The notes under the pieces: generated by a model | The model's input: the letters and a program-made list of their open reading frames with translations, nothing else | The model's database searches: none | What the model was told of the DNA's origin: nothing | Made by a program: the position numbers and the translations under genes | In this document: one piece after another, positions 1-33,356 of the stretch | How positions within the stretch are numbered: position 1 is the first letter of the stretch | How the letters are laid out: each line of letters starts with the position of its first letter | NCBI GenBank assembly: GCA_007376145.1 | Contig: VMFP01000004.1 | Span: 6,988 to 70,987 of the forward strand | From: Parcubacteria group bacterium Gr01-1014_38 | Lineage (GTDB): Bacteria; Patescibacteriota; Andersenbacteria; UBA10190; CAIZMI01 | DNA: 64,000 bases | Direction: 5' to 3'

Positions 1-1308
1 ATAGTTGGTAACCCGCCCTTCATTCGATATCAATACCTCCCAAAGGATTTTCAGCAAAGAGCAGAGGAAGTTTTTGAAAATTTGGATTTACCATTTACGA
101 AACATGCCAACGCTTGGGTACCTTTTGTTTTAGCTTCTATGGCTCTACTGCGCCCCGGTGGTCGTCTCGCAATGGTAGTGCCAGCCGAGATTATGCATAT
201 CACGCATGCTCAACCCCTAAGGTCTTATTTAGGAAAAGAATGCCGCAGACTAGTAATCGTTGATCCGGAGGAACTTTGGTTTAGCGATACACTTCAAGGC
301 GCTGTTCTTCTTCTTGCTGAAAAAAAAGGTAGTCCCGCAGACAAAGCGGAAGGTGTTGGTATTTACCCAGTTAAGCAAAAAGAATTTCTCAATACTGATC
401 CTGAAATTATTTTCTCTGCTCCTAAATCATTAAATGGCAGAACGATCGCTGGAAAATGGACTTATGCACTCTTGGATCGCTCTGCCCGTTCTTTGTTGGA
501 TAACCTATCTAAACATCCGAATGTGCATCATTTTAAGGATATTGCAGAAGTAGATGTTGGGATTGTTACAGGTGCAAATAACTATTTTCTCGTCTCCGAT
601 GAAACTGTGGAGGAATTCGGCTTATCAAAATGGGCTCATCCTATGTTCGGACGAAGCAAGCACTGCCCTGGAGTTATTTATGACGAGTATCAACACCGAA
701 TGAATAAAGAGGAGGGCAAGCCAGCAAATTTTATTTGGTTTTCGGATGATTCTGTGAGTAGATACGTTTCCGCTCAAAAATATATAGACTACGGAGAGGA
801 ACAAAATCTTCATACACGATATAAATGCCGAGTTCGTGATCCTTGGTATTCAGTCCCCTCCGTCTACACTACGGAAATCGGGATGCTCAAAAGATCGCAC
901 GATGCGCCAAGACTCATACTCAATAAAATTGGAGCTTTTACTACTGATACGGCTTACCGAATTAGTGCTCACGGCGTGGCTAATAAGCGCCTAGTGGGAT
1001 CTTTTATTAACTCTTTAACGGCACTAAGCGCTGAACTCGAGGGACGTCATTATGGAGGTGGAGTATTAGAGTTAGTGCCGTCCGAAATTGAGAAACTACT
1101 CATCCCATTACCGGAATTAGCAGTGAATCTTACAGAACTGGACAAGGATGTTAAAACTTTACCGATGGTGGATGTTTTAGAGCAACAGGATAAGAAAATT
1201 TTAAGCAGCTTAGGGCTGACAAAATCTGAGCAGAATCTACTAGTAAATAACTGGCAAAGACTCCACGACAGACGCCAGAGGGTTTCGAGCGATTCCGAAA
1301 TCGCTTAG
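1..1308 (+). CDS. N6-adenine DNA methyltransferase (gamma-class, Eco57I/TaqI-like), 5' partial at window edge
   Basis: Reading frame is open from nt 1 and translates IVGNPPF (motif IV NPPF) followed by about 430 aa consistent with a target-recognition region. Codon usage is AT-rich relative to the rest of the window. The 3' end overlaps the convergent PLD nuclease gene by 4 nt. Confidence 0.7.
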   Translation: MVGNPPFIRYQYLPKDFQQRAEEVFENLDLPFTKHANAWVPFVLASMALLRPGGRLAMVVPAEIMHITHAQPLRSYLGKECRRLVIVDPEELWFSDTLQGAVLLLAEKKGSPADKAEGVGIYPVKQKEFLNTDPEIIFSAPKSLNGRTIAGKWTYALLDRSARSLLDNLSKHPNVHHFKDIAEVDVGIVTGANNYFLVSDETVEEFGLSKWAHPMFGRSKHCPGVIYDEYQHRMNKEEGKPANFIWFSDDSVSRYVSAQKYIDYGEEQNLHTRYKCRVRDPWYSVPSVYTTEIGMLKRSHDAPRLILNKIGAFTTDTAYRISAHGVANKRLVGSFINSLTALSAELEGRHYGGGVLELVPSEIEKLLIPLPELAVNLTELDKDVKTLPMVDVLEQQDKKILSSLGLTKSEQNLLVNNWQRLHDRRQRVSSDSEIA

Positions 1309-2477
1309 TCAATCTCCAGTACAAATCGTCCCTGATCCGCCTCATCTCTATAGAGGGACAAGGTACGTCCGATCAAATCTGGACGTGAGACGTATTCGCG
1401 TATAGGACCCCAACTCAAGCGCGTCATAGCGTTTCGTTGCTGATATGTACGACTGTTCGTATCGGTGCTATGCCTAATTTGTAGTGGAAACTCTCCGTAA
1501 TATATTCCTTTGATAATTAACTGAAAACGAGCCTCCGCTTCCTCCACGCTAACCGTTGCGCGAGGGGTCCACTGAAGGTGGGCAAAAGCTGCATCGCGAA
1601 AGTAGTGTCTGTGATCTATCGCTTCATCTAAAAGACCTTTATCTAGGTTTATAGAACCAGTTGCGTGCGTGCCTCTCTCATGAGGAATATTAAGATCTCG
1701 CTCTGTTAAGGCCTTGCTTTGCCAGACAAGCTCAAGATTGGTTGCGGCTTGGGTTTGAGGTTGTCCTTGGGGAACGTGGCCAACAGCTCGGCGGATTACT
1801 GGTTCTGATCGTGCACGCCGTGACGCACGAGATAGTGGTATAACATCAAGCCGAATGCGTGAAATCGGGTCATTGGAGGGCCTTGATGCGGTAACCGCGG
1901 GGCGTGGAGGCAGAGTTTCCGCCTCGTCGAGTAGGCGGCCACTGTTTTGTAATCTATCCAGCTCTAATGCACCTCGAATTATGAAAATATGTTCAGGATA
2001 TCTTCCGGGTAATTCGGTAAACTGCTCCTGAATTTCGCTGACGAATTCGCGATCGGATTGTTCATCTAGATTCAAATCGAGAGCCAAACTAGCCTCGATG
2101 TTATTGTTCAGCCCGCCGAGGGTTAGATTAGCACTGCCAACAAGCAAGCGTGCGTGTTGCGCACCTCTTGATAAATATAGCTTCGGATGAAAAATAACAC
2201 CCCGCGCTCCAGTATCTACAACGTAAACTGAAACTCCCAGTTCTAATAATCGAGCGAGTCCTTGGCGAGAGGTTATATCATTTCGTATGCCCGAGAAAAC
2301 TTTTGTTTTTGATGCGAAAGGGCGCAGATTATTTTCAATAAGACGTACCCCGTCTTCGTTTATAAAAGCAACACTAAGAACAATCTCCTCAATATCTGGA
2401 ATCTCAATTACGTGTCTGATAGCATCAATGTGATTCCGAGTTGTAAATCCCTGAAAAATAAAATCTTTACTCGCCAT
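1305..2477 (-). CDS. PLD/HKD-family nuclease, putative restriction endonuclease (BfiI/NgoAVII-like) with extra C-terminal domain
   Basis: HKD motif 'IFHPKLYLSRGAQHARLLVGSANLT' (HxK...GSxN). Most plausible start is the ATG at 2477..2475 (MASKDFIFQG); the track ORF extends further 5' into rpsI. AT-rich like the MTase. The start lies 9 nt downstream of the rpsI stop. Confidence 0.65.
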   Translation of the reverse strand: MASKDFIFQGFTTRNHIDAIRHVIEIPDIEEIVLSVAFINEDGVRLIENNLRPFASKTKVFSGIRNDITSRQGLARLLELGVSVYVVDTGARGVIFHPKLYLSRGAQHARLLVGSANLTLGGLNNNIEASLALDLNLDEQSDREFVSEIQEQFTELPGRYPEHIFIIRGALELDRLQNSGRLLDEAETLPPRPAVTASRPSNDPISRIRLDVIPLSRASRRARSEPVIRRAVGHVPQGQPQTQAATNLELVWQSKALTERDLNIPHERGTHATGSINLDKGLLDEAIDHRHYFRDAAFAHLQWTPRATVSVEEAEARFQLIIKGIYYGEFPLQIRHSTDTNSRTYQQRNAMTRLSWGPIREYVSRPDLIGRTLSLYRDEADQGRFVLEID

Positions 2478-2485
2478 GCTATCGT

Positions 2486-2914
2486 TTACCGCTTCTGCCA
2501 CTGTGGCGCCCGGCGGGCGCGCTTGAGTCCAGGCTTTTTGCGTTCCTTTTCTCGCGGGTCGCGGGTGAGCATGTCGGTGTCGCGCAGCGGTTTGCGGAAG
2601 CCTTCTTCCTGCTTTTCGAGCGCACGGGCGATGCCGAGCTTCACGGCACCAGCCTGCGCGTGAATCCCTCCGCCGCTTACCCGTACCGACACATCGAATT
2701 TTCCCCAACTGCCGGTGATCTCAAACGGCTGGCGGACGGGAGTTTGGAGTGCGACGATCGGGAAATACTCCTCCCACGGTCGCTGATTAATAAGGAAGGT
2801 CGTGGCGTCCTTGTCCTTGCCGCCACCCAAACTTCCTGCCGGGAGGAGACGCACCCGAGCGACGGCGGTTTTCCGTCTCCCCACGCCTTCAACGTACCGA
2901 GCTTGGTCAGGCAT
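2486..2914 (-). CDS. rpsI: 30S ribosomal protein S9
   Basis: Translation ends ...KKPGLKRARRAPQWQKR, which matches the S9 family along its full length. Confidence 0.95.
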   Translation of the reverse strand: MPDQARYVEGVGRRKTAVARVRLLPAGSLGGGKDKDATTFLINQRPWEEYFPIVALQTPVRQPFEITGSWGKFDVSVRVSGGGIHAQAGAVKLGIARALEKQEEGFRKPLRDTDMLTRDPREKERKKPGLKRARRAPQWQKR

Positions 2915-3341
2915 TGGCTCCTCCTTTCTGCGCCAGGTGTGGATGCTCCGCGCCTTGGTAGAGCTTTAAGCGAAGAATCATCCGATGGCGCAGGCGGTTC
3001 TTCGGGAGCATGTTCCAAATCGCGTCCCGCACGACGGTACGCGAGTCACGCTCGAGGCGTTTACGGAGCGAGAGAATTCGGACGGCGCCGGGCTTCCGCT
3101 GCGTGTGGCGCATATAGACTTTCGTCTCTCTTTTGGTTCCCGTGACGCGAACACGGTCGGTATTCGTGACGACCACGATGGCGCCCGTATCACGGTACGG
3201 GACCCACTGGGGATGATCTTTCCCGCGAAGGGCGATGGCAACCTCGGTCGCCAGGCGCCCGAGGACGTGTTCCTCCGCGTTGTAGAACCGCCAGGGACGG
3301 TGGGCCTCTGACGGTTGGCTCGTACGCTTGGGAGCAGTCAT
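2907..3341 (-). CDS. rplM: 50S ribosomal protein L13
   Basis: L13-like sequence (…WRFYNAEEHVLGRLATEVA…). Start chosen at ATG 3341 (MTAPKRT); the track ORF extends to 3386. Confidence 0.9.
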   Translation of the reverse strand: MTAPKRTSQPSEAHRPWRFYNAEEHVLGRLATEVAIALRGKDHPQWVPYRDTGAIVVVTNTDRVRVTGTKRETKVYMRHTQRKPGAVRILSLRKRLERDSRTVVRDAIWNMLPKNRLRHRMILRLKLYQGAEHPHLAQKGGANA

Positions 3342-3345
3342 GAGA

Positions 3346-3696
3346 TTAGACGAACTCAATGAGGACTTGCGGTGCGTGATCACCACTACGGTGCGTCGGG
3401 AGTCGCGTCATGCGCGTATAGCCGCCCGGTCGGCTCCGGTACGCGTCGGCGCGTTTCAGGAGTAGCGCTGCCGCCTGGCGATTCCCGAGTGCCGCAATGA
3501 GACGTCGCCGGGACGTCAGAGTATTTGCTTTTGCGGTGGTCACGAGCGGCTCGACAAACTGCCGCACAAACTGGGCCCGTGCCGGCGTGGTGGCAATCTT
3601 TCCGTGCGTGATGAGGGCAATGCCCAGTTTCCGCGCGAGCGCTCGGCGCTCGGCAGGCGTGCGCGACAGGGTGAATTTCGCTCGACGGTGTCTCAT
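3346..3696 (-). CDS. rplQ: 50S ribosomal protein L17
   Basis: MRHRRAKFTLSRTPAERRAL… matches the L17 family; located downstream of rpoA as in the alpha operon. Confidence 0.9.
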   Translation of the reverse strand: MRHRRAKFTLSRTPAERRALARKLGIALITHGKIATTPARAQFVRQFVEPLVTTAKANTLTSRRRLIAALGNRQAAALLLKRADAYRSRPGGYTRMTRLPTHRSGDHAPQVLIEFV

Positions 3697-4775
3697 CCGG
3701 CAGAGTGTTCCTCGCGGAGGCTCACGCCGAGTTTGGTCAGCCCGCTCTCAATCTCTTCCAAGGCCTTCTCGCCAAGCCCTGGAATGCCGAGCATCTGACT
3801 CCGCGTCTTCAACACGAGCCCAGCGACGGTTTTGATACCTTCCTTCTCCAGAAGGTTCTGAATCCGGGTCGCAATGGGGAGCTCCACCACACTGGTGAGC
3901 CTGGGATCCTTCGCGAGTTCCTCCGGCGCCCGCACCGCTCCTGCAACAGCGGTCTCCACGAGACGCGCGGGCGTTTCGATCTCGGTGAGCGGCGGCACCG
4001 ATTCTCCTGGCCCTGCGGTCACAGTCAGTCGGGGGGCGACCGGTGCCTCCTCAACTGGGAGAGCTTCCCGCCGCGTGGTGAGCCGCTCGTGGACGTCGGT
4101 TGCGAGTGCTCCGAAGTGATCCTGGAGAATGGACGCGGCAGCGGACAGGGCGTCACGCGGCGTCACCGTGCCATCGGTCCGGATCGTCATGATGAGTTTG
4201 TGGTACTCCGTGATCTGGCCGACTCGCACATTTTCCACACGGAAACTTACCCGCTCTACCGGCGTAAAAATGGCGTCCACCGCAATGGTCTCTAAGGCAC
4301 GCTCTTCGTTTTCGCGCAACTCGACCGGCACGTACCCCCGACCCTGCTCAGAGGTGAGCGTCATATCCAACGTTGCCTTGTCGTCGGTGAGGTGGGCAAT
4401 CACATGGTCCGGATTCGCGATCTCCACGTTCGCGACCTTCTCAATGTCCCCCGCGGTGACCGTCCGCGCACCGGTGGCTTTGATGCGGAGCTCTACCGGA
4501 GTGTCGGTATGCAGTTTGATCCGGATGCGCTTGATGTTGAGGAGAATGCTGACGAAATCTTCCGCCACACCGGGGAGTGTGGAGAACTCGTGCTCAATTC
4601 CCTCGCAGCGGACCGCGGTAATCGCCGCCCCGGGAAGCGAGGAGAGAAGGACGCGACGCAGTGCATTGCCAACCGTCGGTCCGTATCCAGGGAAGTACGG
4701 ACTGATTTCAAACGTTGCCTCGTTCCCTTCTTCCTTCATCAGGGTGATGGTGCTGGGGAGAAGAATTTTATCCAT
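3693..4775 (-). CDS. rpoA: DNA-directed RNA polymerase subunit alpha
   Basis: N-terminal domain (…FEISPYFPGYGPTVGNALRRVLLSSLPGAA…) and C-terminal domain (…LPIATRIQNLLEKEGIKTVAGL…) typical of RpoA. Confidence 0.95.
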   Translation of the reverse strand: MDKILLPSTITLMKEEGNEATFEISPYFPGYGPTVGNALRRVLLSSLPGAAITAVRCEGIEHEFSTLPGVAEDFVSILLNIKRIRIKLHTDTPVELRIKATGARTVTAGDIEKVANVEIANPDHVIAHLTDDKATLDMTLTSEQGRGYVPVELRENEERALETIAVDAIFTPVERVSFRVENVRVGQITEYHKLIMTIRTDGTVTPRDALSAAASILQDHFGALATDVHERLTTRREALPVEEAPVAPRLTVTAGPGESVPPLTEIETPARLVETAVAGAVRAPEELAKDPRLTSVVELPIATRIQNLLEKEGIKTVAGLVLKTRSQMLGIPGLGEKALEEIESGLTKLGVSLREEHSAG

Positions 4776-4805
4776 GGTCTACGTCAGGTTTTACGGGTAA
4801 ACGGG

Positions 4806-5429
4806 TTAGCGCGAGTAGAATTCTACGACCGCGCGGAGGTCTACCGGAATCTCGGCTGGATCTGGCCGCGGAACGTCAATGACCTTCCCCGTCCACGGAT
4901 CCTCCCGCTTCAGCCAAGAAGGAAGAGTTTTCGTCGCCGTCCGCTCCGCCAGGTTGGTGAAGATCGGCTTTCCACGCTTCGCTTCCTTAATCTGAATCAC
5001 GTCATTCACCTTCACCGGGTACGAGGGGAGGTCCACCCGCCGGCCGTTCACCGCCATGAGCCCGTGGTGGACGAGTTGGCGAGCATGGGCCTGCGAGTGT
5101 GCGAAGCCGAGGCGGTACACAATCCGATCCAAGCGGGATTCCAACCGGGTAATGAGCGCATCAGCGGTCACGCCGCGTTCTGAACGTGCCTCGCGGAAGT
5201 ACCGCTGCAATTGACGCTCGCGAATGTTGTAGATAGCGCGGAGTGCTTGCTTCTCTTTCAGCTGCGCTCCGTACTCCGTCGGTGCGCGGCGCCTCTGCCC
5301 ATGGATGCCGGGCGGGTACGGACGCTGCACAATTGGACACTTCGGCGTGAAGCATTTCTCTCCCTTGAGGAAGAGCTTCGCGCCGGCGAGGCGACAACGA
5401 GCACACACGTGATCAAAGGCAATAGCCAT
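4806..5429 (-). CDS. rpsD: 30S ribosomal protein S4
   Basis: MAIAFDHVCARCRLAGAKLFLKGEKCFTPKCP… zinc-ribbon N-terminus and S4 domain. Confidence 0.95.
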   Translation of the reverse strand: MAIAFDHVCARCRLAGAKLFLKGEKCFTPKCPIVQRPYPPGIHGQRRRAPTEYGAQLKEKQALRAIYNIRERQLQRYFREARSERGVTADALITRLESRLDRIVYRLGFAHSQAHARQLVHHGLMAVNGRRVDLPSYPVKVNDVIQIKEAKRGKPIFTNLAERTATKTLPSWLKREDPWTGKVIDVPRPDPAEIPVDLRAVVEFYSR

Positions 5430-5441
5430 GGGAAAGTCCCG

Positions 5442-5909
5442 TTACACGCGACGCCGTCTCGGCGGTCGGCACCCGTTATGAGGAATGGGAGTGTTATCGC
5501 GGATGGAGGTGAGCACAAATCCACCGTGGGCGGCGAGTGTACGCACGGCCGATTCCCGTCCGCTCCCGATCCCGCGAATCACGACGGATGCTTCCTTCAC
5601 TTGGAATGGCTCGACGCGTTTCAGGAGATCGCGAACCACCTCGTTCGCAACGTACGGAGTCGACTTGCGTGCTCCTTGGTAGCCAATGCGACCGGCGCTG
5701 CTCCACGCAATGACCTTTCCCTCCGGGTCTGCAGCCGTCACGAGGGTGTTGTTGTACGTCGATTGAATGTGAATTTTGACCGTGGGAACCCGACGCCGTC
5801 CAACCTTTTTCTTACTCTCCTTGGCCGACGGTTGCTCCGCGGACGACGCAGACATCGTTGCTTCGGTGGCGGGGGTTTCCGCAGGCATGGCTACCGCTCT
5901 TTGATGCAT
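5442..5909 (-). CDS. rpsK: 30S ribosomal protein S11
   Basis: …TPIPHNGCRPPRRRRV C-terminus and S11 core. N-terminal start is uncertain (alternative ATGs at 5888 and 5855). Confidence 0.9.
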   Translation of the reverse strand: MHQRAVAMPAETPATEATMSASSAEQPSAKESKKKVGRRRVPTVKIHIQSTYNNTLVTAADPEGKVIAWSSAGRIGYQGARKSTPYVANEVVRDLLKRVEPFQVKEASVVIRGIGSGRESAVRTLAAHGGFVLTSIRDNTPIPHNGCRPPRRRRV

Positions 5910-6301
5910 TACTTCTTTTCCGGGGATGCGCGTCGGCCCGAACCTGCCGTCCGACGGATGTTCCCACGAACGGTCCGACTGTTCGTCCGCGTCCGCTGGC
6001 CGCGGACTGGCAGTCGCCGAATGTGCCGCAACCCGCGATAGCAGTGAATGTCCTTCAACCGTCGGATATTCTCGGTGACGTCACGCCGCAGCTCTCCCTC
6101 CACCGAGATACCGCGCTCGATACTCTCGCGGATGGCGCTTGCCTCTTTCTCTGTGAGATCCCGTACCTTCACCGACGGATCCACGCCGGCCTGGGCCAGG
6201 ATTTTCCCGCTCAGGCTTCGGCCAACGCCGTACAGGCGCGCCAAAGCAATTTCGACGCGCTTCTGATCCGGGAGAATCACACCGGCAATACGGATCGCCA
6301 T
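5909..6301 (-). CDS. rpsM: 30S ribosomal protein S13
   Basis: [32 protein letters not shown]… matches the S13 family. Confidence 0.95.
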
Positions 6302-6393
6302 AGGTCTGCTCAGTACTGAGTTCCGAGTTCTCAGTGGGTTACTGAAAGACTCAAACCTCGCAACTCATGACTCAGCGCTGCACTTGGCGGACA

Positions 6394-6510
6394 TTACCCC
6401 TGCCGCTGCTTGTGCTTCGGATTTGCCGGGCACACCACGAACAAGTGGCCTCGACGGCGGACTAATTTGCACTGCGCGCACCGGCGTTTTACGGAAGCAT
6501 GAACCTTCAT
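6394..6510 (-). CDS. rpmJ: 50S ribosomal protein L36
   Basis: Not in the ORF track (38 aa). Reverse-strand translation [38 protein letters not shown] has the C-x2-C…C…H pattern of L36. Sits between infA and rpsM as expected. Confidence 0.85.
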
Positions 6511-6620
6511 GAATGGTGTTCAAGATCCAAGGTCCGTGGTCACAGGACAGCCGCAGGGAGGCGGGATAAACAACCCTCGCCCGATGCTTGGGACCGCGTA
6601 CCTCGTTCCTTGATGGGTCG

Positions 6621-6845
6621 TTAGGAGCGTGCGTCGAGACGCTGGATGATTCTCCCGCGCGTGAGATCGTAGGGGGAGAGTTCGACGGTCACCCGGTCAC
6701 CGGGAAGGACTCGAATGCGGTGCACCCGCATGCGCCCGGAGATGTGCGCCAGCACTTCGTGTCCTCCCTCCGCTTCGACTCGGAACGTCGCGTTGGGAAG
6801 ATTCTCTTTCACGACCCCAGTCAGTTGGATCGTGTCCTTCGCCAC
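6621..6845 (-). CDS. infA: translation initiation factor IF-1
   Basis: [40 protein letters not shown]… S1-like IF-1. Confidence 0.95.
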
Positions 6846-7017
6846 AACAGAACGTTCAGAACGTTAGAAACTCCTGCGGAGAAGCCCGCAGCACTTCCTG
6901 GGGTGGTACTTGGAAGTAGACCGACAGGAACATGCCCAAGTGCGTGCGGAGCAGGATCACAGACGCGTTAGGATAGAGCATACGAAAGTCGGAAAGCGCT
7001 GTCAAGAGCAACGGTGA

Positions 7018-8526
7018 TCACGGTTGGGTTGCCACGTCGATGTGGATATTCCGGCGAAGCGAGGGAATGCGCTTGATCCAGACCGGCGAGAGACGAACCT
7101 CTGCGGTGCGCACGCCGGGAATCGCGCGGAGGAACGCGGCAGCATCATCCGCGGTTCTGCCTTGGAGCCGCTCACGCAGCTCATCGAAGTTGAGACGCGG
7201 GATCAGCGGGGTTTCTGAATGGAGCGAGAACTCGGTTCTCCCGTGGTCCCAGCGCACGTCGACGACCCGAAGGTCCTCAAAGGAGCTTTTCCGGACCGGA
7301 TCTTTCTCGTTCCCGATTCGCTGCTGAAGCAGATCGGTCAGAAATGCCTGGAGCGACGCAGCATCCGCGGTGAACGCCTCGCCGCGAACCGTGGTCCGAA
7401 TTCGGAAGGACTCTGCATCGGTCCCGACGGGGGGAGAGATTTCCGCCTCGCCAACGACCACGCGAGAAAGCTCCGGGCGCGAAAAGGACACCTGCTCCTG
7501 CCTCGAATGGGGCGTGGGCGCGGTACGCGCCTCACGTTGTATGAGTTCCAGGAGTTTGCGCTCGGCGTTCTCGCGAAGTGCGGTGGTACCCCGCTCAACG
7601 TCTGTGGTCGCGAGCTGGCGCACCAGCCGGTCAGTTCCGCCGTGCAGCGGACGCACGATTTCCCCGTAGAGAAGTCGACGGGATTCTGCCGGAAGCGCGG
7701 GTATGACGAGCCGCTGCGGGTCAAGATTTGCCTTGCTGCCTCCCTCCTCCGCCCGCACGGCAACCGACGCACGGCCCAAGGCTGGAACAATGACGTCGCG
7801 CTGCGTACGCACCACCACCCCCGACGTGCCCTGGAGCCGCGTGCGTGCTTTGATCCCCTGCTGGGCCGCCGTCTGGTTCACGATGTCGACCACGCCCTCG
7901 GCACGCGCTCCTTTCTCGACGGTGGTGTGAACGGGGAATTCCTCTTCGACTGCTTCCTCGATGCGGAGGAGGCGCGCGGGGTGTGTTCCGGTATCGCGTT
8001 GAGGTTCGCGCACACTCGCATCCAGTCGCAGGGTGAGATCAGCCGCAAATGGCTCGGTCGCGAGGACGAGACGGACGCGTGCCCGCGGCACCACGAACGT
8101 CACGACGCCGGTGAGAAGCATACCAGTGAGAACTGCGAAGACCGCCAGGGTCGCACGACCCCTCGGCGTCACGATGGGAAACCGCCGCCAGGGGAGCAAA
8201 GGGAGTTCACGGGGTCCTCCGGGGAGCAGGCGCCGCCTCCGGAAACTGGAAGAACCCGCCCGCTCCCGCGGCCCACGCTGATCAGCGCTGACCGTGGCGT
8301 GCCGTACTGCACGGTCAGCGAGCTGAAAGGTAATGTCCTTTCCAAAGTCTGCAGCGGTCGCTTGGAGGAGTCGGCGGACCAGCGGATCCGCCCGCAGAAC
8401 GGGATGTTGCCGGCAGTCGATTACGACGTGCGGGGCGGGAACTCGTTGGATCTTCTCCAGGATATCCGGCAGATCATCCGAGGCGGGGATGCGTAAGACG
8501 GGTGCCGTGCTCTGACTACTTGGCAT
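7018..8526 (-). CDS. hypothetical protein with a single transmembrane helix and a large C-terminal domain (possibly PilN/PilO-like)
   Basis: Long ORF with one hydrophobic helix (LAVFAVLTGMLLTGVVTFVV). The track ORF (to 8658) overlaps the upstream gene by about 140 nt; the internal ATG at 8526 was chosen to minimise overlap, so the start is uncertain. Confidence 0.4.
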   Translation of the reverse strand: MPSSQSTAPVLRIPASDDLPDILEKIQRVPAPHVVIDCRQHPVLRADPLVRRLLQATAADFGKDITFQLADRAVRHATVSADQRGPRERAGSSSFRRRRLLPGGPRELPLLPWRRFPIVTPRGRATLAVFAVLTGMLLTGVVTFVVPRARVRLVLATEPFAADLTLRLDASVREPQRDTGTHPARLLRIEEAVEEEFPVHTTVEKGARAEGVVDIVNQTAAQQGIKARTRLQGTSGVVVRTQRDVIVPALGRASVAVRAEEGGSKANLDPQRLVIPALPAESRRLLYGEIVRPLHGGTDRLVRQLATTDVERGTTALRENAERKLLELIQREARTAPTPHSRQEQVSFSRPELSRVVVGEAEISPPVGTDAESFRIRTTVRGEAFTADAASLQAFLTDLLQQRIGNEKDPVRKSSFEDLRVVDVRWDHGRTEFSLHSETPLIPRLNFDELRERLQGRTADDAAAFLRAIPGVRTAEVRLSPVWIKRIPSLRRNIHIDVATQP

Positions 8527-9747: not shown

Positions 9748-11520
9748 TCACTCAACCACCGCGCGAATGCGACGAATGCCTTGGGCCAGGCCCTCCTCTT
9801 TCGTAATGTGAAAGCGCCCGATCACCCCTGTCCGCGGGACGTGGGGACCGCCACAAATCTCTTTCGAGAAATCACCGACCGTGTACACGCTCACCTGATC
9901 GCCGTACTTCTCTTCGAAAAAACCTAATGCGCCGGCAGCTTTCGCTTCCTCCGGCGTCATGACTGCGCGCGTCACGGGAAGATCTCGGCGAATCTCCTTG
10001 TTCACGAGGTCCTCTACTTTGCGGATTTCCTCGGTGGAGAGCTTCCTCGGATGGGAGAAATCAAACCGGAGCCGCTCGGGTGTAATGTTCGACCCCTTCT
10101 GCTCGACGTGCGGCCCGAGGATGCGTCGGAGTGCCTCATGGAGGAGATGGGTGGCGGTGTGCATGCGCACCGTCCGCTCGGAGTGGTCCGTAAGACCGCC
10201 AGCAAACCGCTGGGTCATGCCCGCGCGGGAGACTTGCTGGTGCTTCTGGAACTCCTCCTCAAAACCTTTGAAGTCTACCGTCACGTCCTGGGACGCACCG
10301 AGTGACCGAAGAAGATCCGGATGAATGCCGCTCTCTTGATAAATCGCGAACGCCTCTGCCCCAGAGATCCGTGTGTCACCGCGCCCCCGTACCTGTTCGA
10401 TAAACTTCCCAGCCCGCTGTTCGATAACGATGTATTTTTGGAGCTCGCCCCAGAGCTGGGTCTCCGCTTGGCTTTTGCGCTCGAAAATCTCCGGGTAGGC
10501 CTCGCCATAAATACGCGCAAGTTCGTCAACAAACCGATTACCAATATCCAGAAGGTGATGTTCTTCTGCTCCTTGGAGACGGAGAGACCGCAAGGCACGG
10601 CGGATGAGTCGCCGGAGGACATAGCCCTGTTCGACATTGCTGGGGACGATTTCGTGCGGATCGCTCAAGACGAAGACGGCGGCGCGGAGATGATCGGCAG
10701 CAATCCGGAGATGCCTCTCATCGGCACGCGGCACGCTCCCCCGAATGAGCTCCATGAGCGGGGCGAACACGTCCGTTTCGTACACGTTTGTATGACCGCA
10801 CAGAACTGCCACCGCGCGCTCCAGCCCCATGCCGGTATCCACGTTCTTCTGTTGTAGAGGAGCGAAGGTACCGTCGGAGCGCTTCTCGTATTCCATGAAG
10901 ACATCGTTCCAAATCTCAACAAAGCGTCCGGAGTCGTCGTTCGGGCGCGTGGATGCTGGCCCTCGACCAGTATCGAAGAATATTTCCGTGTCCGGACCGC
11001 AGGGACCCGCCTTCCCGGGCGGCCCCCACCAGTTCGCGCTCTTCCCAAAGAAGAACATTCGGTCTTTAGGGATTCCGAGCCGTTCCCAGATGCGCGCGGA
11101 CTCGGTATCGCGTGGCGCGTCGGCGTCACCGGCAAAGCAGGTCACCGCGAGCTTCTCCGCTGGGAGCGAGAGCCACCGATCGGAGGTCAGAAACTCAAAA
11201 CTCATTTCAATCGCTTCCTTCTTGAAATAATCACCGAGCGACCAGTTCCCGAGCATTTCAAAGAACGTCAGGTGGAAGGCATCACCAACCTCGTCAATGT
11301 CGCCCGTCCGGAGGCACTTCTGCACGTTCGCGAGTCGCTTTCCCTGCGGATGGGGTTGTCCGAGTAGATACGGCACGAGCGGCTGCATACCGGCGGCGGT
11401 AAAAAGAACAGTGGGATCGTTCTCCGGAACCAGCGATGCGGACGGAAGAATGGCGTGCCCGCGCTCGCGGAAGAATTCCAAGAACCGTTCGCGGAGCTGC
11501 GTGCTCGTGATTGCGCACAT
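9748..11520 (-). CDS. alaS: alanine--tRNA ligase, compact form lacking the C-Ala domain
   Basis: Class II catalytic core plus editing-domain zinc motifs (HTATHLLH … CGGPHV). Ends at 590 aa. Confidence 0.95.
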   Translation of the reverse strand: MCAITSTQLRERFLEFFRERGHAILPSASLVPENDPTVLFTAAGMQPLVPYLLGQPHPQGKRLANVQKCLRTGDIDEVGDAFHLTFFEMLGNWSLGDYFKKEAIEMSFEFLTSDRWLSLPAEKLAVTCFAGDADAPRDTESARIWERLGIPKDRMFFFGKSANWWGPPGKAGPCGPDTEIFFDTGRGPASTRPNDDSGRFVEIWNDVFMEYEKRSDGTFAPLQQKNVDTGMGLERAVAVLCGHTNVYETDVFAPLMELIRGSVPRADERHLRIAADHLRAAVFVLSDPHEIVPSNVEQGYVLRRLIRRALRSLRLQGAEEHHLLDIGNRFVDELARIYGEAYPEIFERKSQAETQLWGELQKYIVIEQRAGKFIEQVRGRGDTRISGAEAFAIYQESGIHPDLLRSLGASQDVTVDFKGFEEEFQKHQQVSRAGMTQRFAGGLTDHSERTVRMHTATHLLHEALRRILGPHVEQKGSNITPERLRFDFSHPRKLSTEEIRKVEDLVNKEIRRDLPVTRAVMTPEEAKAAGALGFFEEKYGDQVSVYTVGDFSKEICGGPHVPRTGVIGRFHITKEEGLAQGIRRIRAVVE

Positions 11521-11529
11521 GGCACCGAT

Positions 11530-11889
11530 TTACCGTGACCGTTGGAACGCTTCCTCGCGTAAGGAATTGACGTCGCGCTCGAGCCGCGAGATCTTCGCTT
11601 TCTGCCCTGCGACGCGGTGCTCCAATTCTTGAAGCGCCCGCTCCCGATCCCGTTGCCGTTGCTCGAGTTGCAGCATCTCCGTTTCTTTTCGCTCCCGGTC
11701 TCGCCGGATTCGCGCAACCTCCTCCTTCCGCTGTCGCTCATCACCAAGCAGACGCGAAAGAGCTTCGCGCTCTTCCGCAAGCTCTAATTCCTTTTTCTGG
11801 TACTTCGACCGACGCTCGCGCGCGGAGGGCTTTCCCCCGCGGTCTCCAAATGGAGCTTCCTCGTCCGATCCACTCCAGACCTTTGACAT
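11530..11889 (-). CDS. coiled-coil protein (Glu/Arg-rich heptad-like region)
   Basis: ATG at 11889 (MSKVWSGSDEE…), followed by a long charged coiled-coil segment (ELELAEEREALSRLLGDERQRKEEVARIRRDRERKETEMLQLEQRQRDRERALQELEHR). Confidence 0.5.
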   Translation of the reverse strand: MSKVWSGSDEEAPFGDRGGKPSARERRSKYQKKELELAEEREALSRLLGDERQRKEEVARIRRDRERKETEMLQLEQRQRDRERALQELEHRVAGQKAKISRLERDVNSLREEAFQRSR

Positions 11890-11938
11890 GAGGCTATCGT
11901 ACAGACGCTCGTTGCGAGCGTACAGAGCGCCCGACAGC

Positions 11939-12694
11939 CTAAAAAAACTTGCGCTCTTTGGATTGCTCAATAATCGGCAGTGCTTCTTCCGCGGAATCCA
12001 CGATGGTAAACACCTCGAGATCGAATGCGTCAATGAGCGGGGGATCGTGTTCGATCATGAAGGTGCGCATCCACTCCCGGAATGGTTCCCAAAACGTCTT
12101 CCCGATGCAGATGATGGAAATTTTCTCCATCTTCTTCGTCTGGACGAGCGTAGCAATTTCCGTCATTTCGTCGAGTGTGCCGAATCCCCCGGGAAAAAAT
12201 ACGTACGCCTGCGCCGACGCAGAGAGCATGACCTTCCGGGTGAAGAAGTAATCAAACGCCATTCGTTTTCGGACGTACGGATTGCGTCGCTCTCCTTCCG
12301 GAAGATTAATGTCGATACCGACAGAGCATTCTTCGACCGTTCCTTGGCACCCCTCGAGTGCGCCTTTGTTTGCTGCCTCCATGATGCCGGGACCTCCCCC
12401 GGTGATCACCGTATACCCGCGCTCGGTCAGAAGTCGCCCGAGTTTCTCCGCCTCGTGATACCAGGGATCTCCGGCCGGAATGCGCGCGCTGCCGAAAAAC
12501 GTCACCTCCCGTTTGAGCGGAAGGAGAAAGCGGAACCCCTCCACAAACTCTCGGAGAATTTCATCCAGGTGCCACGTTTCGTCGCCCTGAAATTCGTTCG
12601 GGTCCAAGCAGATGAGCGGCCGCGGGCCTTCCTGCGGCGGAGGCGGCACGGGAGGCGGTAACGGACCGATATGTTCTTGGTCTCTCGTGCCCAT
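11939..12694 (-). CDS. LOG-family (TIGR00730) Rossmann-fold nucleotide-binding protein
   Basis: Motifs GGGPGIMEAANKGA and PGGFGTLDE are typical of the LOG / lysine-decarboxylase-like family. Confidence 0.85.
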   Translation of the reverse strand: MGTRDQEHIGPLPPPVPPPPQEGPRPLICLDPNEFQGDETWHLDEILREFVEGFRFLLPLKREVTFFGSARIPAGDPWYHEAEKLGRLLTERGYTVITGGGPGIMEAANKGALEGCQGTVEECSVGIDINLPEGERRNPYVRKRMAFDYFFTRKVMLSASAQAYVFFPGGFGTLDEMTEIATLVQTKKMEKISIICIGKTFWEPFREWMRTFMIEHDPPLIDAFDLEVFTIVDSAEEALPIIEQSKERKFF

Positions 12695-12697
12695 TGC

Positions 12698-14497
12698 TTA
12701 CACGTGGAGCCCGCCAAGCGGAGGGGGTGGCAGAGGAGGGGGCTGGACGCGCACGCGGCCTGACGCGATCGGGGATCGTCCCTGCTCCGCTCCACGCGCG
12801 CCGAGCTTGAAACGCTTGCGTTCGGCACGAACAATCGCCAAACACTCCGGGCAGTACTTTTCCTTCCCAGGAACTGGCTCAAAGGGAACCTCCGTTGCCC
12901 GTCCGCACCGATCGCAGGTGATGGGGTACGCCCGCTTCAGACGCTGCGGCTCTTCCTGTCGGAGACGATCCTCGAGACTCGCGATCTGCTGACCAGACGG
13001 CGCCACGACGGCGTTCTCCAAGGCTTCAACGGGCGGGAGCGCGCGCTCGGGCGTTCGTGTGTGTGGTCGAGGAAATTCTCGACGTTCACTGTGGTCGGAA
13101 CGTTGCTGTTCTTGGCGCCGCTCGAAGGTATAGGCGGCGGATTCTTCCTCCCCGGCTTGTCGGAAGGTCTTGGAACTCCACCGACTAATCTTCTCTTCCA
13201 CAACTTCACGGGGGCGACCATGGCGCTCTCGTGAAACCCGGATGATCTTCTCCGCTTCCCCGTACCATGGGGATCGTGAGCCGAGAGGAATCGTCATCAT
13301 GGAAAACGGCTTGCTCGCGGTCCCGTCAATCATGAGCTTGATGTAGGCATTGTACTTGTCGAGGTTCACGAGATCCGTTTCCGTAAAGTGCGGAGCGAAT
13401 TCCCGCTCGAGGAACTCCGCATCGTAGGCGCCAATTCGGAAGCACAGGGTGGTTCCCACGTTCCCGAAGACGGCGTCGCGCACTTCCTCTGACATCTGGG
13501 TAATGTACTGATGCGCCATGATGATATCCAGGCGGTACTTCCGAGCTTCGCTCAAAATAGTCGCAAACGACTCCGTGGCAAAATTCTGGAACTCGTCTAC
13601 GTACAGGTAGAAATCCTGACGCTGTTCCTCGGGAAGCTGCGCGCGGTCCATGGCGGCCAGTTGAATCTTCGTAATCATCATTGCCCCGAGGAGCGCGGCG
13701 TTGTCTTCTCCAATCTTCCCTTTTGAGAGATTCATGATGAAGACTTTTTTCTGGTCCATAATCTCCCGGAGATCAATGGTGGAGTTGGGCTGACCAATGA
13801 TGTTCCGGATGATGCTGCTCGTCAGAAACTGTCCGACTTTGTTTTGGATCGGGGCAATCGCCTCCTGGCGGAACCGCTCGTTGTACTGTGCGAATTCGTC
13901 CACCCAGAATGACTTCACAACGGGATCGCGGATGTTCGAGACAATCTCCTTCCGAAAGTCCTTGTCCACGAGAATCCGCAGGATACCGAGGAGCGTGTTC
14001 CCCGGCGAGTCCAGGAGGGCCAAAATGGTATTCCGGAGAATGTATTCGAGCCGGGGTCCCCACGAATCAGCCCAGAGCTTCTTGAAGACACCGACGAGAC
14101 CCGACGTAACGAGGTTTTTCTCCTGGGCGAAACGGGAGTCCTCCGGGCGGACCGTTTCTAGGACGTTGAAGGCGACGGGGAACTCCGCGTCTGACGGATC
14201 AAAGTAAATAACGTCGTTGATGCGGTTCGGTGATACGTAGTCGAGCATCGTGGTGGCAAAGTCCCCATGGGGATCAACAACTGCCAACCCCTCGCCGTGC
14301 TGAATATCTTGGATCGCCATGTTCTCGAGGACCGTCGTCTTTCCGGACCCAGTTTTTCCAATGACGTAGAGGTGTCGGCGGCGATCATCGCGCTTAATCC
14401 CGAATGCGCGCCGGACATTACGAAAGTTGGTTTCGCCGACAACCGTGATAAGTTCTGGTGAGACGGTAGGGCTCATGTGTGCGTTCCCAGTATACAA
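12698..14497 (-). CDS. TrwB/VirD4/TraD-like (DUF87-type) P-loop ATPase with C-terminal zinc ribbon
   Basis: Walker A VIGKTGSGKTT and Walker B-like LYVDEFQNF. C-terminal C-x2-C…C-x2-C (ITCDRCGRATEV…KYCPECL) precedes a Pro-rich tail. No N-terminal TM segment. Confidence 0.8.
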   Translation of the reverse strand: MYTGNAHMSPTVSPELITVVGETNFRNVRRAFGIKRDDRRRHLYVIGKTGSGKTTVLENMAIQDIQHGEGLAVVDPHGDFATTMLDYVSPNRINDVIYFDPSDAEFPVAFNVLETVRPEDSRFAQEKNLVTSGLVGVFKKLWADSWGPRLEYILRNTILALLDSPGNTLLGILRILVDKDFRKEIVSNIRDPVVKSFWVDEFAQYNERFRQEAIAPIQNKVGQFLTSSIIRNIIGQPNSTIDLREIMDQKKVFIMNLSKGKIGEDNAALLGAMMITKIQLAAMDRAQLPEEQRQDFYLYVDEFQNFATESFATILSEARKYRLDIIMAHQYITQMSEEVRDAVFGNVGTTLCFRIGAYDAEFLEREFAPHFTETDLVNLDKYNAYIKLMIDGTASKPFSMMTIPLGSRSPWYGEAEKIIRVSRERHGRPREVVEEKISRWSSKTFRQAGEEESAAYTFERRQEQQRSDHSERREFPRPHTRTPERALPPVEALENAVVAPSGQQIASLEDRLRQEEPQRLKRAYPITCDRCGRATEVPFEPVPGKEKYCPECLAIVRAERKRFKLGARGAEQGRSPIASGRVRVQPPPLPPPPLGGLHV

Positions 14498-33217: not shown

Positions 33218-33320
33218 TTTCTTCCTTTTGACAACGGCTCTATGTGTTGAATGGGTTGAACGGGCCGAGCAACCAATTGACAAAATCCTGTCCGGCAGAT
33301 ATACTGAAAGCACTAAACGT

Positions 33321-33356
33321 GGGGCGGATATTTCGCATGTCCGCCCCGTTTTTATT
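33321..33356 (-). terminator. rho-independent terminator immediately after the NYN stop codon (bidirectional-looking)
   Basis: GGGGCGGA-N11-TCCGCCCC stem (33321-33328 / 33340-33347), flanked by an A-tract upstream and TTTTTATTT downstream on the plus strand. Confidence 0.6.

What the first reader, a model, noticed from the sequence alone, without database searches (positions are those of the whole stretch)
2470..2500. Defense nuclease start 9 nt after the rpsI stop: likely read-through expression from the ribosomal operon
The ATG of the PLD nuclease (2477) is co-oriented with rpsI and sits 9 nt downstream of its stop codon, with no intervening terminator or obvious promoter. This would tie a foreign nuclease to a highly expressed essential operon, which is an unusual integration site and expression strategy.
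Basis: seen in the sequence. Interest (0 to 1): 0.55.

Follow-up and report, generated by a model that had tools for sequence, protein, structure and literature searches.

The report
Restriction enzyme gene fused behind rpsI
A recently acquired two-gene restriction-modification system fills the gap between the ribosomal gene rpsI and the SOS repressor gene lexA in an uncultured Parcubacteria genome, and its nuclease gene has no promoter or terminator of its own, so it is most likely transcribed as the last gene of the ribosomal operon.

Summary
On the minus strand the rpsI stop (TAA, 2488-2486) is followed by 8 nt and then the ATG (2477) of a 390-aa PLD-family nuclease. No terminator-like or promoter-like site lies between them, and an independent assembly reproduces the junction exactly.

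The nuclease is the R gene of a BfiI-like Type II restriction-modification pair. Its partner is a convergent M.Eco57I-like methylase that overlaps it by 4 nt at the 3' ends. Both genes are foreign: GC3 is 0.36-0.38 against 0.65-0.78 for host genes.

They fill the gap between convergent host genes rpsI and lexA. Two relatives carry different cargo at that site. One of them keeps a bidirectional terminator 27 nt after rpsI.

In 54 of 78 species, rpsI is followed by a terminator-like hairpin, against 6% of random control stretches. The nearest homologous systems have a C-protein gene or a -10 box directly upstream of R. This copy has neither.

Read-through transcription from the ribosomal operon is therefore the most economical reading, but it is inferred, and the expression level is unknown.

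The site is better described as a variable rpsI/lexA slot. The family's recurrent neighbour is lexA, found upstream of M in 10 of 13 related systems, not rpsI.

Moderately interesting; a new variant of a known kind.

The parts
6977..7005 (-). Candidate sigma-70-type promoter TTGACA-17-TATGCT, upstream of infA. It is the likely promoter of the infA-rpsM-rpsK-rpsD-rpoA-rplQ-rplM-rpsI(-R) transcription unit.
   Evidence: 10/12 match. It lies in the 170-nt non-coding stretch before infA. Function is inferred.
2907..6845 (-). Host ribosomal/RNA polymerase gene string: infA 6845-6621, rpsM 6301-5909, rpsK 5909-5442, rpsD 5429-4806, rpoA 4775-3693, rplQ 3696-3346, rplM 3341-2907. Genes are tightly packed or overlapping. 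GC is about 0.62.
   Evidence: Pfam assignments for the called genes; GC.
2486..2914 (-). rpsI (ribosomal protein S9, 142 aa), the last host gene of the string. Stop TAA at 2488-2486. It has a strong SD (AAGGAGGA).
   Evidence: Ribosomal_S9, 3.6e-40; SD duplex -11.9 kcal/mol.
2478..2485 (-). 8-nt spacer ACGATAGC between the rpsI stop and the R start. The host/foreign DNA junction lies here: relatives share only TAAA(C) after the stop.
   Evidence: L003 and L004 rpsI 3' ends; DNA similarity to R homologues begins at the ATG; GC falls from 0.62-0.65 to 0.38 here.
1305..2477 (-). R gene: 390-aa restriction endonuclease with an N-terminal PLD (HxK) nuclease domain and a C-terminal B3-like DNA-binding domain, the BfiI/R.NgoAVII architecture. 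The ORF is intact and all family-invariant residues are present.
   Evidence: PLDc_2, 4.1e-7; PADLOC REase_II, 2.6e-8; BfiI 2c1l, 1.3e-8; model; EcoRII-N 3hqf, NgoAVII 4rct; invariant H97, K99, G114-S-A-N-L-T.
1..1308 (+). M gene (3' 435 codons; the 545-aa gene runs off the left edge of the window). It is an M.Eco57I-like gamma-class N6-adenine DNA methyltransferase, convergent with R, with a 4-nt overlap of the two stop codons (TTAG, 1305-1308).
   Evidence: M_Eco57I_C, 2.2e-90; Eco57I; N6_Mtase; PADLOC MTase_II, 1.4e-156; full gene in L001 11170-12807.
1..2483 (.). Low-GC foreign island. The whole island is 2.86 kb (L001 about 10000-12860) and contains exactly R and M. It is bounded by rpsI on one side and by host lexA on the other. 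lexA lies outside the window at L001 12861-13505, is co-oriented with M, and has a 53-nt gap to the M ATG.
   Evidence: GC profile; GC: R 0.467, M 0.429, lexA 0.609, flanks 0.619; GC3 0.38/0.36 against 0.65-0.78; CAI 0.45/0.46 against 0.67-0.77.

Best explanation
A compact two-gene Type II restriction-modification cassette was acquired horizontally by this Parcubacteria (CPR) genome. It now fills the whole gap between two convergent resident genes, rpsI and lexA. R is a BfiI-like PLD nuclease with a B3-like DNA-binding domain. M is an M.Eco57I-like adenine methylase.

On the R side the cassette arrived without, or later lost, the control region that relatives carry there. In relatives this is either a C-protein gene with its operator or a -10 box a few bases before the ATG. 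The native rpsI terminator is also gone.

The R gene therefore begins 8 nt after the rpsI stop. It is most likely transcribed as the last cistron of the infA...rplM-rpsI operon, from the promoter near 7005.

Translation probably comes from ribosomes that terminate at the rpsI UAA and re-initiate, or from weak de novo initiation. The weak SD and the foreign codon usage probably keep the yield low.

M is expressed from the opposite side. The most likely source is read-through from the lexA promoter, as in most related systems.

Shown: gene identities, foreign origin, junction positions, absence of signals, the state in relatives. Inferred: co-transcription, re-initiation, expression level, and the lexA-M operon.
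For: Geometry and signals:
- Gene layout and the 8-nt gap.
- No terminator or promoter at the junction, in a genome that has canonical promoters and terminators elsewhere.
- A candidate operon promoter lies at 7005..6977.

What normally follows rpsI:
- A terminator-like hairpin within 150 nt of the stop in 54 of 78 species representatives, against 23 of 400 random windows; none in the window.
- Relative L004 has a bidirectional terminator 27 nt after the stop.

Foreign origin of R and M:
- Sharp GC borders at the rpsI stop and the lexA stop.
- GC3 and CAI far from host values, while lexA is host-like.
- The same rpsI...lexA...GT4 synteny holds in L003 (LexA 86%, GT4 75% identity) and L004 (LexA 66% by tblastn; GT4 59%), with different cargo: DUF4145 in L003 and a 469-aa unknown protein in L004.

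Identity as a restriction-modification pair:
- R and M are convergent neighbours in nearly all of about 85 loci.
- PLD plus B3-like architecture.

Loss of R's own control:
- The nearest homologues (69% identity) have an HTH_3 C gene 5 nt upstream of R.
- C-less relatives have TAAAAT or TATAAT 7-12 nt before the ATG.
- The window has neither.

Other points:
- R is intact: full length, with all 69 family-invariant residues.
- The junction is reproduced in an independent assembly.
- R's SD strength (-3.9 kcal/mol) is in the range of the other internal cistrons of this operon, -0.4 to -5.9.
Against: - No transcript data exist here, so co-transcription is an inference from missing signals.
- The scans use E. 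coli-type consensus patterns. A divergent promoter inside rpsI, or Rho-dependent termination, would escape them. One 8/12 promoter-like match lies inside rpsI at 2724..2697, although that is background level.
- High expression of a restriction enzyme, with convergent transcription running antisense into its own methylase gene, would be hazardous. Some unseen damping must exist if the read-through is strong.
- The weak SD and a CAI of 0.45 are also compatible with a gene that makes almost no protein.
- There is only one genome with this junction, so selection for the arrangement cannot be shown.
Confidence: 0.65

Rival explanations
1. R has its own promoter, unrecognised by the scans, inside the 3' part of rpsI. 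Operon read-through would then contribute little, for example because Rho or an unconventional terminator stops most transcripts at the end of rpsI.
For: One TTGAGA-16-AAAATT match (8/12) lies at 2724..2697 inside rpsI. In a known C-protein restriction-modification system, promoters for R lie inside the upstream gene (Csp231I, PMC4824078; title and abstract seen). CPR promoter and termination rules have not been studied experimentally (my own knowledge).
Against: The 8/12 match is at background level: 27% of 450-nt host segments reach it. There is no TAnnnT in the 120 nt before the ATG. That DNA is host rpsI coding sequence, conserved in relatives without the R-M, so any promoter there would be fortuitous. 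No hairpin with a U tract is present.
Confidence: 0.15
2. The R gene is effectively silent or on its way to decay. Losing its C gene and promoter disarmed it, and the system now works as an orphan methylase plus a barely translated ORF.
For: The C gene and -10 box present in relatives are missing. The SD is weak and the codon usage foreign. Loss of R function is a common fate of restriction-modification systems (established knowledge).
Against: The ORF is full length, with no frameshift or stop, and keeps every family-invariant residue including the HxK and GSANLT active-site motifs. The unameliorated composition suggests the cassette is recent. Without a terminator it would still be transcribed. 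Most cistrons of this operon have equally weak SDs yet must be translated.
Confidence: 0.15
3. The junction is an assembly chimera that joins a high-GC Parcubacteria contig to an unrelated low-GC fragment.
For: The GC step is very abrupt, about 0.62-0.65 to 0.38 within a few bases.
Against: An independently built Logan contig spans the junction with 100% identity. Both borders of the island fall exactly between genes, and host sequence resumes on the far side with lexA and GT4 in the same order as in two relatives. The contig continues for 245 kb.
Confidence: 0.02
4. The restriction-modification pair is ancestral at this position and was inherited vertically with rpsI and lexA, rather than being a recent insert.
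For: The same R-M clade lies next to lexA in several CPR lineages.
Against: GC3 is 0.36-0.38 against 0.65-0.78 for host genes, and CAI is 0.45 against about 0.7. The two closest genomes have other cargo in the same slot. M is 65-74% identical between lineages whose LexA is only 27-42% identical, and RpsI of other CPR genomes is about 47-53% identical to the window's. That is the reverse of what vertical descent predicts.
Confidence: 0.03

Closest known systems
BfiI (Type IIS) and the R subunits of NgoAVII/CglI: PLD-superfamily restriction endonucleases with a C-terminal B3-like DNA-binding domain
   Same: The N-terminal PLD domain carries a single HxK motif (profile against BfiI 2c1l, E = 1.3e-8). 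The C-terminal beta-rich domain matches the EcoRII N-terminal / B3-like fold, and R.NgoAVII matches over both domains. It is paired with a separate methyltransferase. There is no adjacent ATPase gene, so it resembles BfiI more than NgoAVII/CglI.
   Different: Sequence similarity is confined to about 90 residues of the PLD core. The C-terminal domain has no sequence-level match to any solved structure. The partner methylase is an M.Eco57I-like N6-adenine enzyme. The recognition site and cleavage mode are unknown. Homologues are annotated only as 'phospholipase D family protein' or 'HKD family nuclease'.
C-protein-controlled Type II restriction-modification systems with convergent C-R and M units (e.g. 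AhdI, PMC2275141; PvuII, PMC2175313)
   Same: The nearest homologous systems (69% R identity) have exactly this layout: a 73-aa HTH_3 gene 5 nt upstream of R, and a convergent M. R depends on transcription that starts upstream of another gene.
   Different: In the window the C gene and its operator are absent, and rpsI occupies the C position. The delay circuit that protects a new host during establishment is therefore missing, and R is wired to a housekeeping operon instead.
Defence or cargo hotspots flanked by conserved core genes
   Same: The flanks are conserved (rplQ-rplM-rpsI on one side, lexA-GT4 on the other) and the content differs in three related genomes: R-M, a DUF4145 gene, and a 469-aa unknown protein.
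   Different: The slot is tiny (0.6-2.9 kb, one or two genes). No integrase, repeats or tRNA were seen at the borders. The cargo abuts both flanking genes to within 8 and 53 nt.
rplM-rpsI operon ending in an intrinsic terminator (the usual bacterial arrangement)
   Same: rpsI is the last ribosomal gene of the string, as in 70 of the 78 species examined, which have no long co-oriented ORF starting within -15 to +60 nt of the stop.
   Different: 69% of the species have a terminator-like hairpin within 150 nt of the stop, and L004 has one at +27 nt. Here it is absent and a foreign ORF starts at +9.

Membership tests
PLD-superfamily (BfiI-like) Type II restriction endonuclease | PLD catalytic motif HxK...(G)SxN in an N-terminal nuclease domain | tested here: met
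   Pfam PLDc_2, 30.4 bits (cut-off 27), E = 4.1e-7. FHPKLY...GSANLTLGGLNNNIE is invariant in 30 homologues. BfiI 2c1l, E = 1.3e-8.
PLD-superfamily (BfiI-like) Type II restriction endonuclease | C-terminal B3-like (EcoRII-N-like) sequence-recognition domain | tested here: met
   In the AlphaFold model the C-domain (residues 248-390) has pLDDT of about 75-94. Foldseek gives EcoRII-N with DNA (3hqf_A) at E = 6e-3, prob 1.0, TMt 0.46, and R.NgoAVII (4rct_A) at E = 6e-6. The support is fold-level only and moderate.
PLD-superfamily (BfiI-like) Type II restriction endonuclease | Adjacent cognate DNA methyltransferase | tested here: met
   The convergent M.Eco57I-like gene overlaps R by 4 nt. The same pairing is seen in nearly all of about 85 homologous loci.
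PLD-superfamily (BfiI-like) Type II restriction endonuclease | Sequence-specific cleavage that is blocked by the cognate methylation | not testable with these tools
   This needs biochemistry or methylome data.
C-protein-regulated restriction-modification system | A small HTH (C) gene immediately upstream of and co-transcribed with R, with C-box operators | tested here: not met
   tblastn with the L083 C protein finds nothing in L001. Only 8 nt separate rpsI from R. The C gene is present in the 69%-identity relatives L083, L085, L091-L094 and in L121.
Cistron of the infA...rplM-rpsI operon (co-transcription with rpsI) | Same strand, short intercistronic distance, and no terminator or promoter between the genes | tested here: met
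   This is pattern-level evidence only.
Cistron of the infA...rplM-rpsI operon (co-transcription with rpsI) | A continuous transcript across the junction | not testable with these tools
   No transcriptome data were accessible.
Variable cargo slot between conserved core genes | Orthologous flanks with different content in related genomes, and composition of the cargo unlike the host | tested here: met
   L003 and L004 against L001. GC, GC3 and CAI values.

The most novel reading that the evidence does not exclude
The two halves of this restriction-modification system are wired to two host stress and growth circuits, and the wiring on the M side is a selected, recurrent design in CPR bacteria. 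M sits directly downstream of, and co-oriented with, the SOS repressor gene lexA in 10 of the 13 systems of this R-M clade. The gaps are 15-19 nt in eight of them, too short for a promoter. This holds even though LexA is host-like and only 27-42% identical between lineages, while M is 65-74% identical. If M is co-transcribed with autoregulated, damage-inducible lexA, then self-restriction damage would raise methylase expression: a negative-feedback safeguard that replaces or supplements C-protein control. In the window the R half is additionally tied to ribosome synthesis.
Probability: 0.25. Interest if true: 0.6.

Novelty: new variant of a known kind. Interest (0 to 1): 0.4.

Why it matters
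Restriction enzymes are toxic unless their expression is balanced against the methylase. Known systems achieve this with their own promoters, C proteins or antisense RNAs. Here a complete, intact R gene appears to have given up its own control and to borrow the transcription of an essential ribosomal operon, while the methylase borrows that of lexA.

If confirmed, this would be a clear natural example of a mobile defence cassette surviving by plugging into host operons in a very compact genome. It would also point to a possible link between restriction, growth rate and the SOS response in CPR bacteria, where gene regulation is almost unexplored.

As it stands it is one genome with sequence-level inference only. 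It is a useful, testable curiosity rather than a major surprise.

Tried and rejected
- Assembly chimera: rejected, because the independent Logan contig is identical across the junction.
- Alternative start codon for R: rejected, because the N-terminus is conserved from M1 in all homologues.
- Intrinsic terminator or stable structure at the junction: none found.
- Known RNA element, ribosomal leader or attenuator in 1-8000: Rfam finds nothing at E <= 1.
- tRNA or tmRNA as an integration target: none in the window.
- SD strength as a discriminator: uninformative, because most cistrons of this operon have weak SDs.
- Strains with an identical RpsI but no insert: only the same contig was found.
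- Remnant of a donor lexA 3' end in the 53-nt lexA-M spacer: no convincing match. Only the last about 20 nt resemble the L108/L109 spacer.
- Microhomology (TAAAC) between the rpsI end and the C-gene end of relatives as the recombination point: noted, but too short to evaluate.
- Mechanical 'nearest upstream ORF' tally for R in 72 loci: most calls in high-GC loci were spurious ORFs. Only the C-gene, RmuC, SPFH and 56-aa cases were kept.
- rpsI-lexA adjacency in other CPR or Chloroflexi genomes: absent in 78 other loci, so it is specific to this lineage.
- Literature searches for a lexA-methylase link or restriction-modification systems in CPR: nothing relevant found.
Full report
**1. What is there**

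All relevant genes lie on the minus strand of the window:

| Gene | Coordinates |
|---|---|
| infA | 6845-6621 |
| rpsM | 6301-5909 |
| rpsK | 5909-5442 |
| rpsD | 5429-4806 |
| rpoA | 4775-3693 |
| rplQ | 3696-3346 |
| rplM | 3341-2907 |
| rpsI | 2914-2486 |

The rpsI stop codon TAA is at 2488-2486. It is followed by 8 nt (ACGATAGC). The ATG at 2477 then opens a 390-codon ORF that ends at 1305.

The ATG is the genuine start. More than 1,300 homologues exist. The best 30, at 381-411 aa, align from residue 1 with a conserved N-terminus MAxKxFILQGFT.

The source organism is 'Parcubacteria group bacterium Gr01-1014_38', a member of the Candidate Phyla Radiation.

**2. The junction is real**

The same protein is encoded on a 245-kb ENA contig and carries an NCBI record. 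It is also on a 1,721-bp contig assembled independently by Logan from run SRR8863434. The Logan contig spans the last 257 nt of rpsI, the whole nuclease gene and the methylase 3' end, and it is 100% identical to the window.

**3. What the nuclease is**

- Pfam finds a PLD-like domain (PLDc_2, 4.1e-7).
- PADLOC's best model is a Type II restriction enzyme (2.6e-8).
- A profile of 30 homologues hits BfiI (2c1l, 1.3e-8), SauUSI and R.NgoAVII.
- An AlphaFold model (mean pLDDT 74.5) has two well-predicted domains joined by a disordered linker.
- The N-terminal domain matches PLD nucleases: SauUSI, Nuc, NucT and Zucchini.
- The C-terminal domain matches the EcoRII N-terminal, B3-like DNA-binding domain (3hqf, prob 1.0). 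R.NgoAVII matches over both domains.

This is the BfiI/NgoAVII architecture described in PMC4267654 and PMC2853115 (abstracts seen).

The gene converging on it runs from 1308 off the left edge of the window. It is 545 aa in full (locus L001). It is an M.Eco57I-like N6-adenine methyltransferase (M_Eco57I_C, 2.2e-90; PADLOC MTase_II, 1.4e-156). The two stop codons overlap (TTAG, 1305-1308).

In about 85 homologous loci from metagenomes and genomes, the two genes are almost always convergent neighbours.

The 'defense nuclease' is therefore the R gene of a two-gene Type II restriction-modification system of an uncharacterised BfiI-like family. The family also occurs on small plasmids.

**4. It is foreign and fills a variable slot**

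GC falls from 0.62-0.65 to about 0.38 exactly at the rpsI stop. It rises again exactly at the stop codon of a lexA gene on the far side of M.

| Gene or region | GC | GC3 | CAI |
|---|---|---|---|
| R | 0.467 | 0.38 | 0.45 |
| M | 0.429 | 0.36 | 0.46 |
| lexA | 0.609 | 0.72 | 0.73 |
| Flanks (GC) / 16 host genes (GC3, CAI) | 0.619 | 0.65-0.78 | 0.67-0.77 |

(Values.)

The island is 2.86 kb and contains nothing but R and M.

Two related genomes keep the same neighbourhood, rplQ-rplM-rpsI ... lexA ... GT4 glycosyltransferase:

| Locus | RpsI identity | LexA identity | GT4 identity | Cargo between rpsI and lexA |
|---|---|---|---|---|
| L003 | 76% | 86% | 75% | A 192-aa DUF4145 gene on the opposite strand; its stop overlaps the rpsI stop |
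| L004 | 65% | 66% | 59% | A 457-nt spacer followed by a 469-aa protein of unknown family |

After the rpsI stop the three genomes share only TAAA(C). The foreign DNA in the window therefore begins within about 5-6 nt of the R ATG.

The nuclease is not ancestral at this position.

**5. Signals at the junction and what normally follows rpsI**

- No promoter-like or terminator-like site lies on the minus strand near the junction.
- Folding shows nothing beyond shuffled controls (z = 0.09).
- There is no TAnnnT hexamer in the last 120 nt of rpsI. The best promoter match inside rpsI is at background level.
- Rfam finds nothing in 1-8000.

This absence carries some weight, for three reasons.

- The genome has canonical promoters and strong terminators elsewhere. 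One is a TTGACA-17-TATGCT promoter in the non-coding stretch upstream of infA (7005-6977), which is the obvious candidate to drive the whole string.
- Relative L004 has a bidirectional intrinsic terminator (ATCCCTGCATCAAGCAGGGAT followed by a T-rich tail) 27 nt after its rpsI stop.
- Among 78 species representatives, 54 have a terminator-like hairpin within 150 nt after rpsI, against 23 of 400 random windows. The window has none.

A long co-oriented ORF starting within 12 nt of the rpsI stop is rare: about 4 of 78 by a mechanical ORF call, and none is a nuclease.

**6. What R's relatives have in that position**

- In the closest systems (69% identity: L083, L085, L091-L094) and in L121, a 73-aa HTH_3 gene ends 1-5 nt before the R ATG. 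This is a classical C (controller) protein. An AT-rich region with repeats lies upstream of it.
- In C-less relatives (L089, L096, L108, L109) a TAAAAT or TATAAT box lies 7-12 nt before the ATG, the geometry of leaderless or short-leader transcripts.
- Others have 35-130 nt of spacer.

The window copy has none of these. DNA similarity to relatives begins at the ATG. rpsI sits where the C gene sits in the nearest relatives.

**7. Most likely mechanism**

Transcription of R most plausibly comes from the ribosomal operon. Nothing recognisable stops RNA polymerase at the end of rpsI and nothing recognisable starts it afresh.

Translation may occur by re-initiation of ribosomes that terminate 8 nt upstream, or by weak direct initiation. 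The predicted SD pairing (-3.9 kcal/mol) is as weak as that of the other internal cistrons (-0.4 to -5.9). Only rpsI has a strong SD (-11.9).

Foreign codon usage should lower the yield further.

These steps are inferred. No expression data were available.

Because R and M overlap tail to tail without a terminator, read-through would continue antisense into M. That is a feature of the whole family, but it could be accentuated here.

**8. The M side and the lexA link**

M starts 53 nt after the stop of host lexA, on the same strand, with no terminator-like hairpin or convincing -10 box in between. lexA has a TTGACA promoter element upstream in L001 and L003.

A LexA-type gene lies directly upstream of M, co-oriented, in 10 of the 13 non-redundant systems of the CPR clade of this R-M family. 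The exceptions are L084, L086 and L088. In eight of them the lexA-M gap is 15-19 nt.

These LexA proteins are only 27-42% identical to the window's, whereas M is 65-74% identical. In each case LexA has a composition closer to the flanks than R and M do.

rpsI-lexA adjacency itself is peculiar to the window's lineage. The proximity of R to rpsI therefore looks like a by-product: the cassette occupies the slot downstream of lexA, which in this lineage is bounded by rpsI.

It is unresolved why the cassette recurs next to lexA. Three possibilities are selection for co-transcription with an autoregulated, damage-inducible gene; a targeting mechanism; and repeated exchange. I found no literature on it.

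**9. Verdict**

- Read-through is the best explanation, at about 0.65.
- It is unproven.
- 'Highly expressed nuclease' does not follow from it.
- The site is a variable rpsI/lexA slot rather than a special choice of the ribosomal operon.

The system is a new, uncharacterised member of the BfiI-like restriction-modification systems. Its regulatory wiring, with no C gene and R fused behind rpsI, is a new variant of a known kind.

Interest is moderate (0.4). The lexA-M linkage is the more general lead.

Noticed in passing
L001 12808-13505 (outside the window, left of position 1); also L083, L085, L089, L092-L094, L096, L108, L109, L121: A LexA-type gene (LexA_DNA_bind + Peptidase_S24) lies directly upstream of, and co-oriented with, the M gene in 10 of the 13 systems of the CPR clade of this R-M family. 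The gaps are 15-19 nt in eight of them. LexA is host-like and only 27-42% identical between lineages, whereas M is 65-74% identical. This suggests a lexA-M operon or a preferred insertion slot.
   Followed up: partly
L003 4560-5138 (-) and L004 4438-6304: The same rpsI/lexA slot holds a DUF4145 gene in L003. Its stop overlaps the rpsI stop and it lies 5 nt after lexA. In L004 the slot holds a 469-aa protein with no Pfam match. The slot therefore turns over its cargo.
   Followed up: partly
L004 4438-4900: The 457-nt spacer after rpsI in this relative is dense in signals: 8 terminator-like sites against 0.8 expected, and 4 promoter-like sites against 1.1 expected. Two of the promoter-like sites are 10/12 TTGACA promoters. 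It could hold small RNA genes or several transcription-unit boundaries.
   Followed up: no
L089 3975-4000, L096 2770-2795, L108 3975-4000, L109 1235-1258: C-less members of the family have a TAAAAT or TATAAT box 7-12 nt upstream of the R ATG, which suggests leaderless or very short-leader R transcripts.
   Followed up: no
window 2521-2534 (+): A terminator-like hairpin with a T run (GCTTGAGTCCAGGC TTTTTGCGTT) lies on the strand antisense to rpsI, inside the codons for the KKPGLK motif. It could stop transcripts that enter rpsI antisense from the M/lexA direction, or it could be a by-product of the coding sequence.
   Followed up: no
window 333-351 (-): A terminator-like site (TTCCGCTTTGTCTGCGGGA CTACCTTTTT) lies on the R strand about 1 kb past the R stop, inside the antisense of M. 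It is a possible end point for read-through transcripts. It may be a chance match.
   Followed up: no
window 2915-6850 (-): Within the infA...rpsI string only rpsI has a strong Shine-Dalgarno sequence (-11.9 kcal/mol). The other cistrons score -0.4 to -5.9, and infA shows no pairing (+0.4).
   Followed up: partly
window 33277-33349 (+): A near-consensus promoter (TTGACA-17-TATACT, 11/12) is followed within 14 nt by the strongest terminator hairpin of the window (13-bp stem plus a T run). This could be a very short transcript, an attenuator, or a bidirectional terminator for the neighbouring minus-strand gene.
   Followed up: no
L088 6871-9041: In one Patescibacteria genome the M gene is preceded by a tyrosine recombinase (Phage_integrase) instead of lexA. 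An HTH_3 gene and an Mrr-type nuclease gene follow. This is a small defence island and a hint at how the cassette may move.
   Followed up: no
L086 204-5146: In the Kazan-group genome the homologous R gene lies 35 nt behind rmuC and only 3.4 kb downstream of rplM-rpsI (with secE-nusG-rpmG between). This is a second, looser association with the same ribosomal genes, possibly by chance in a small genome.
   Followed up: no
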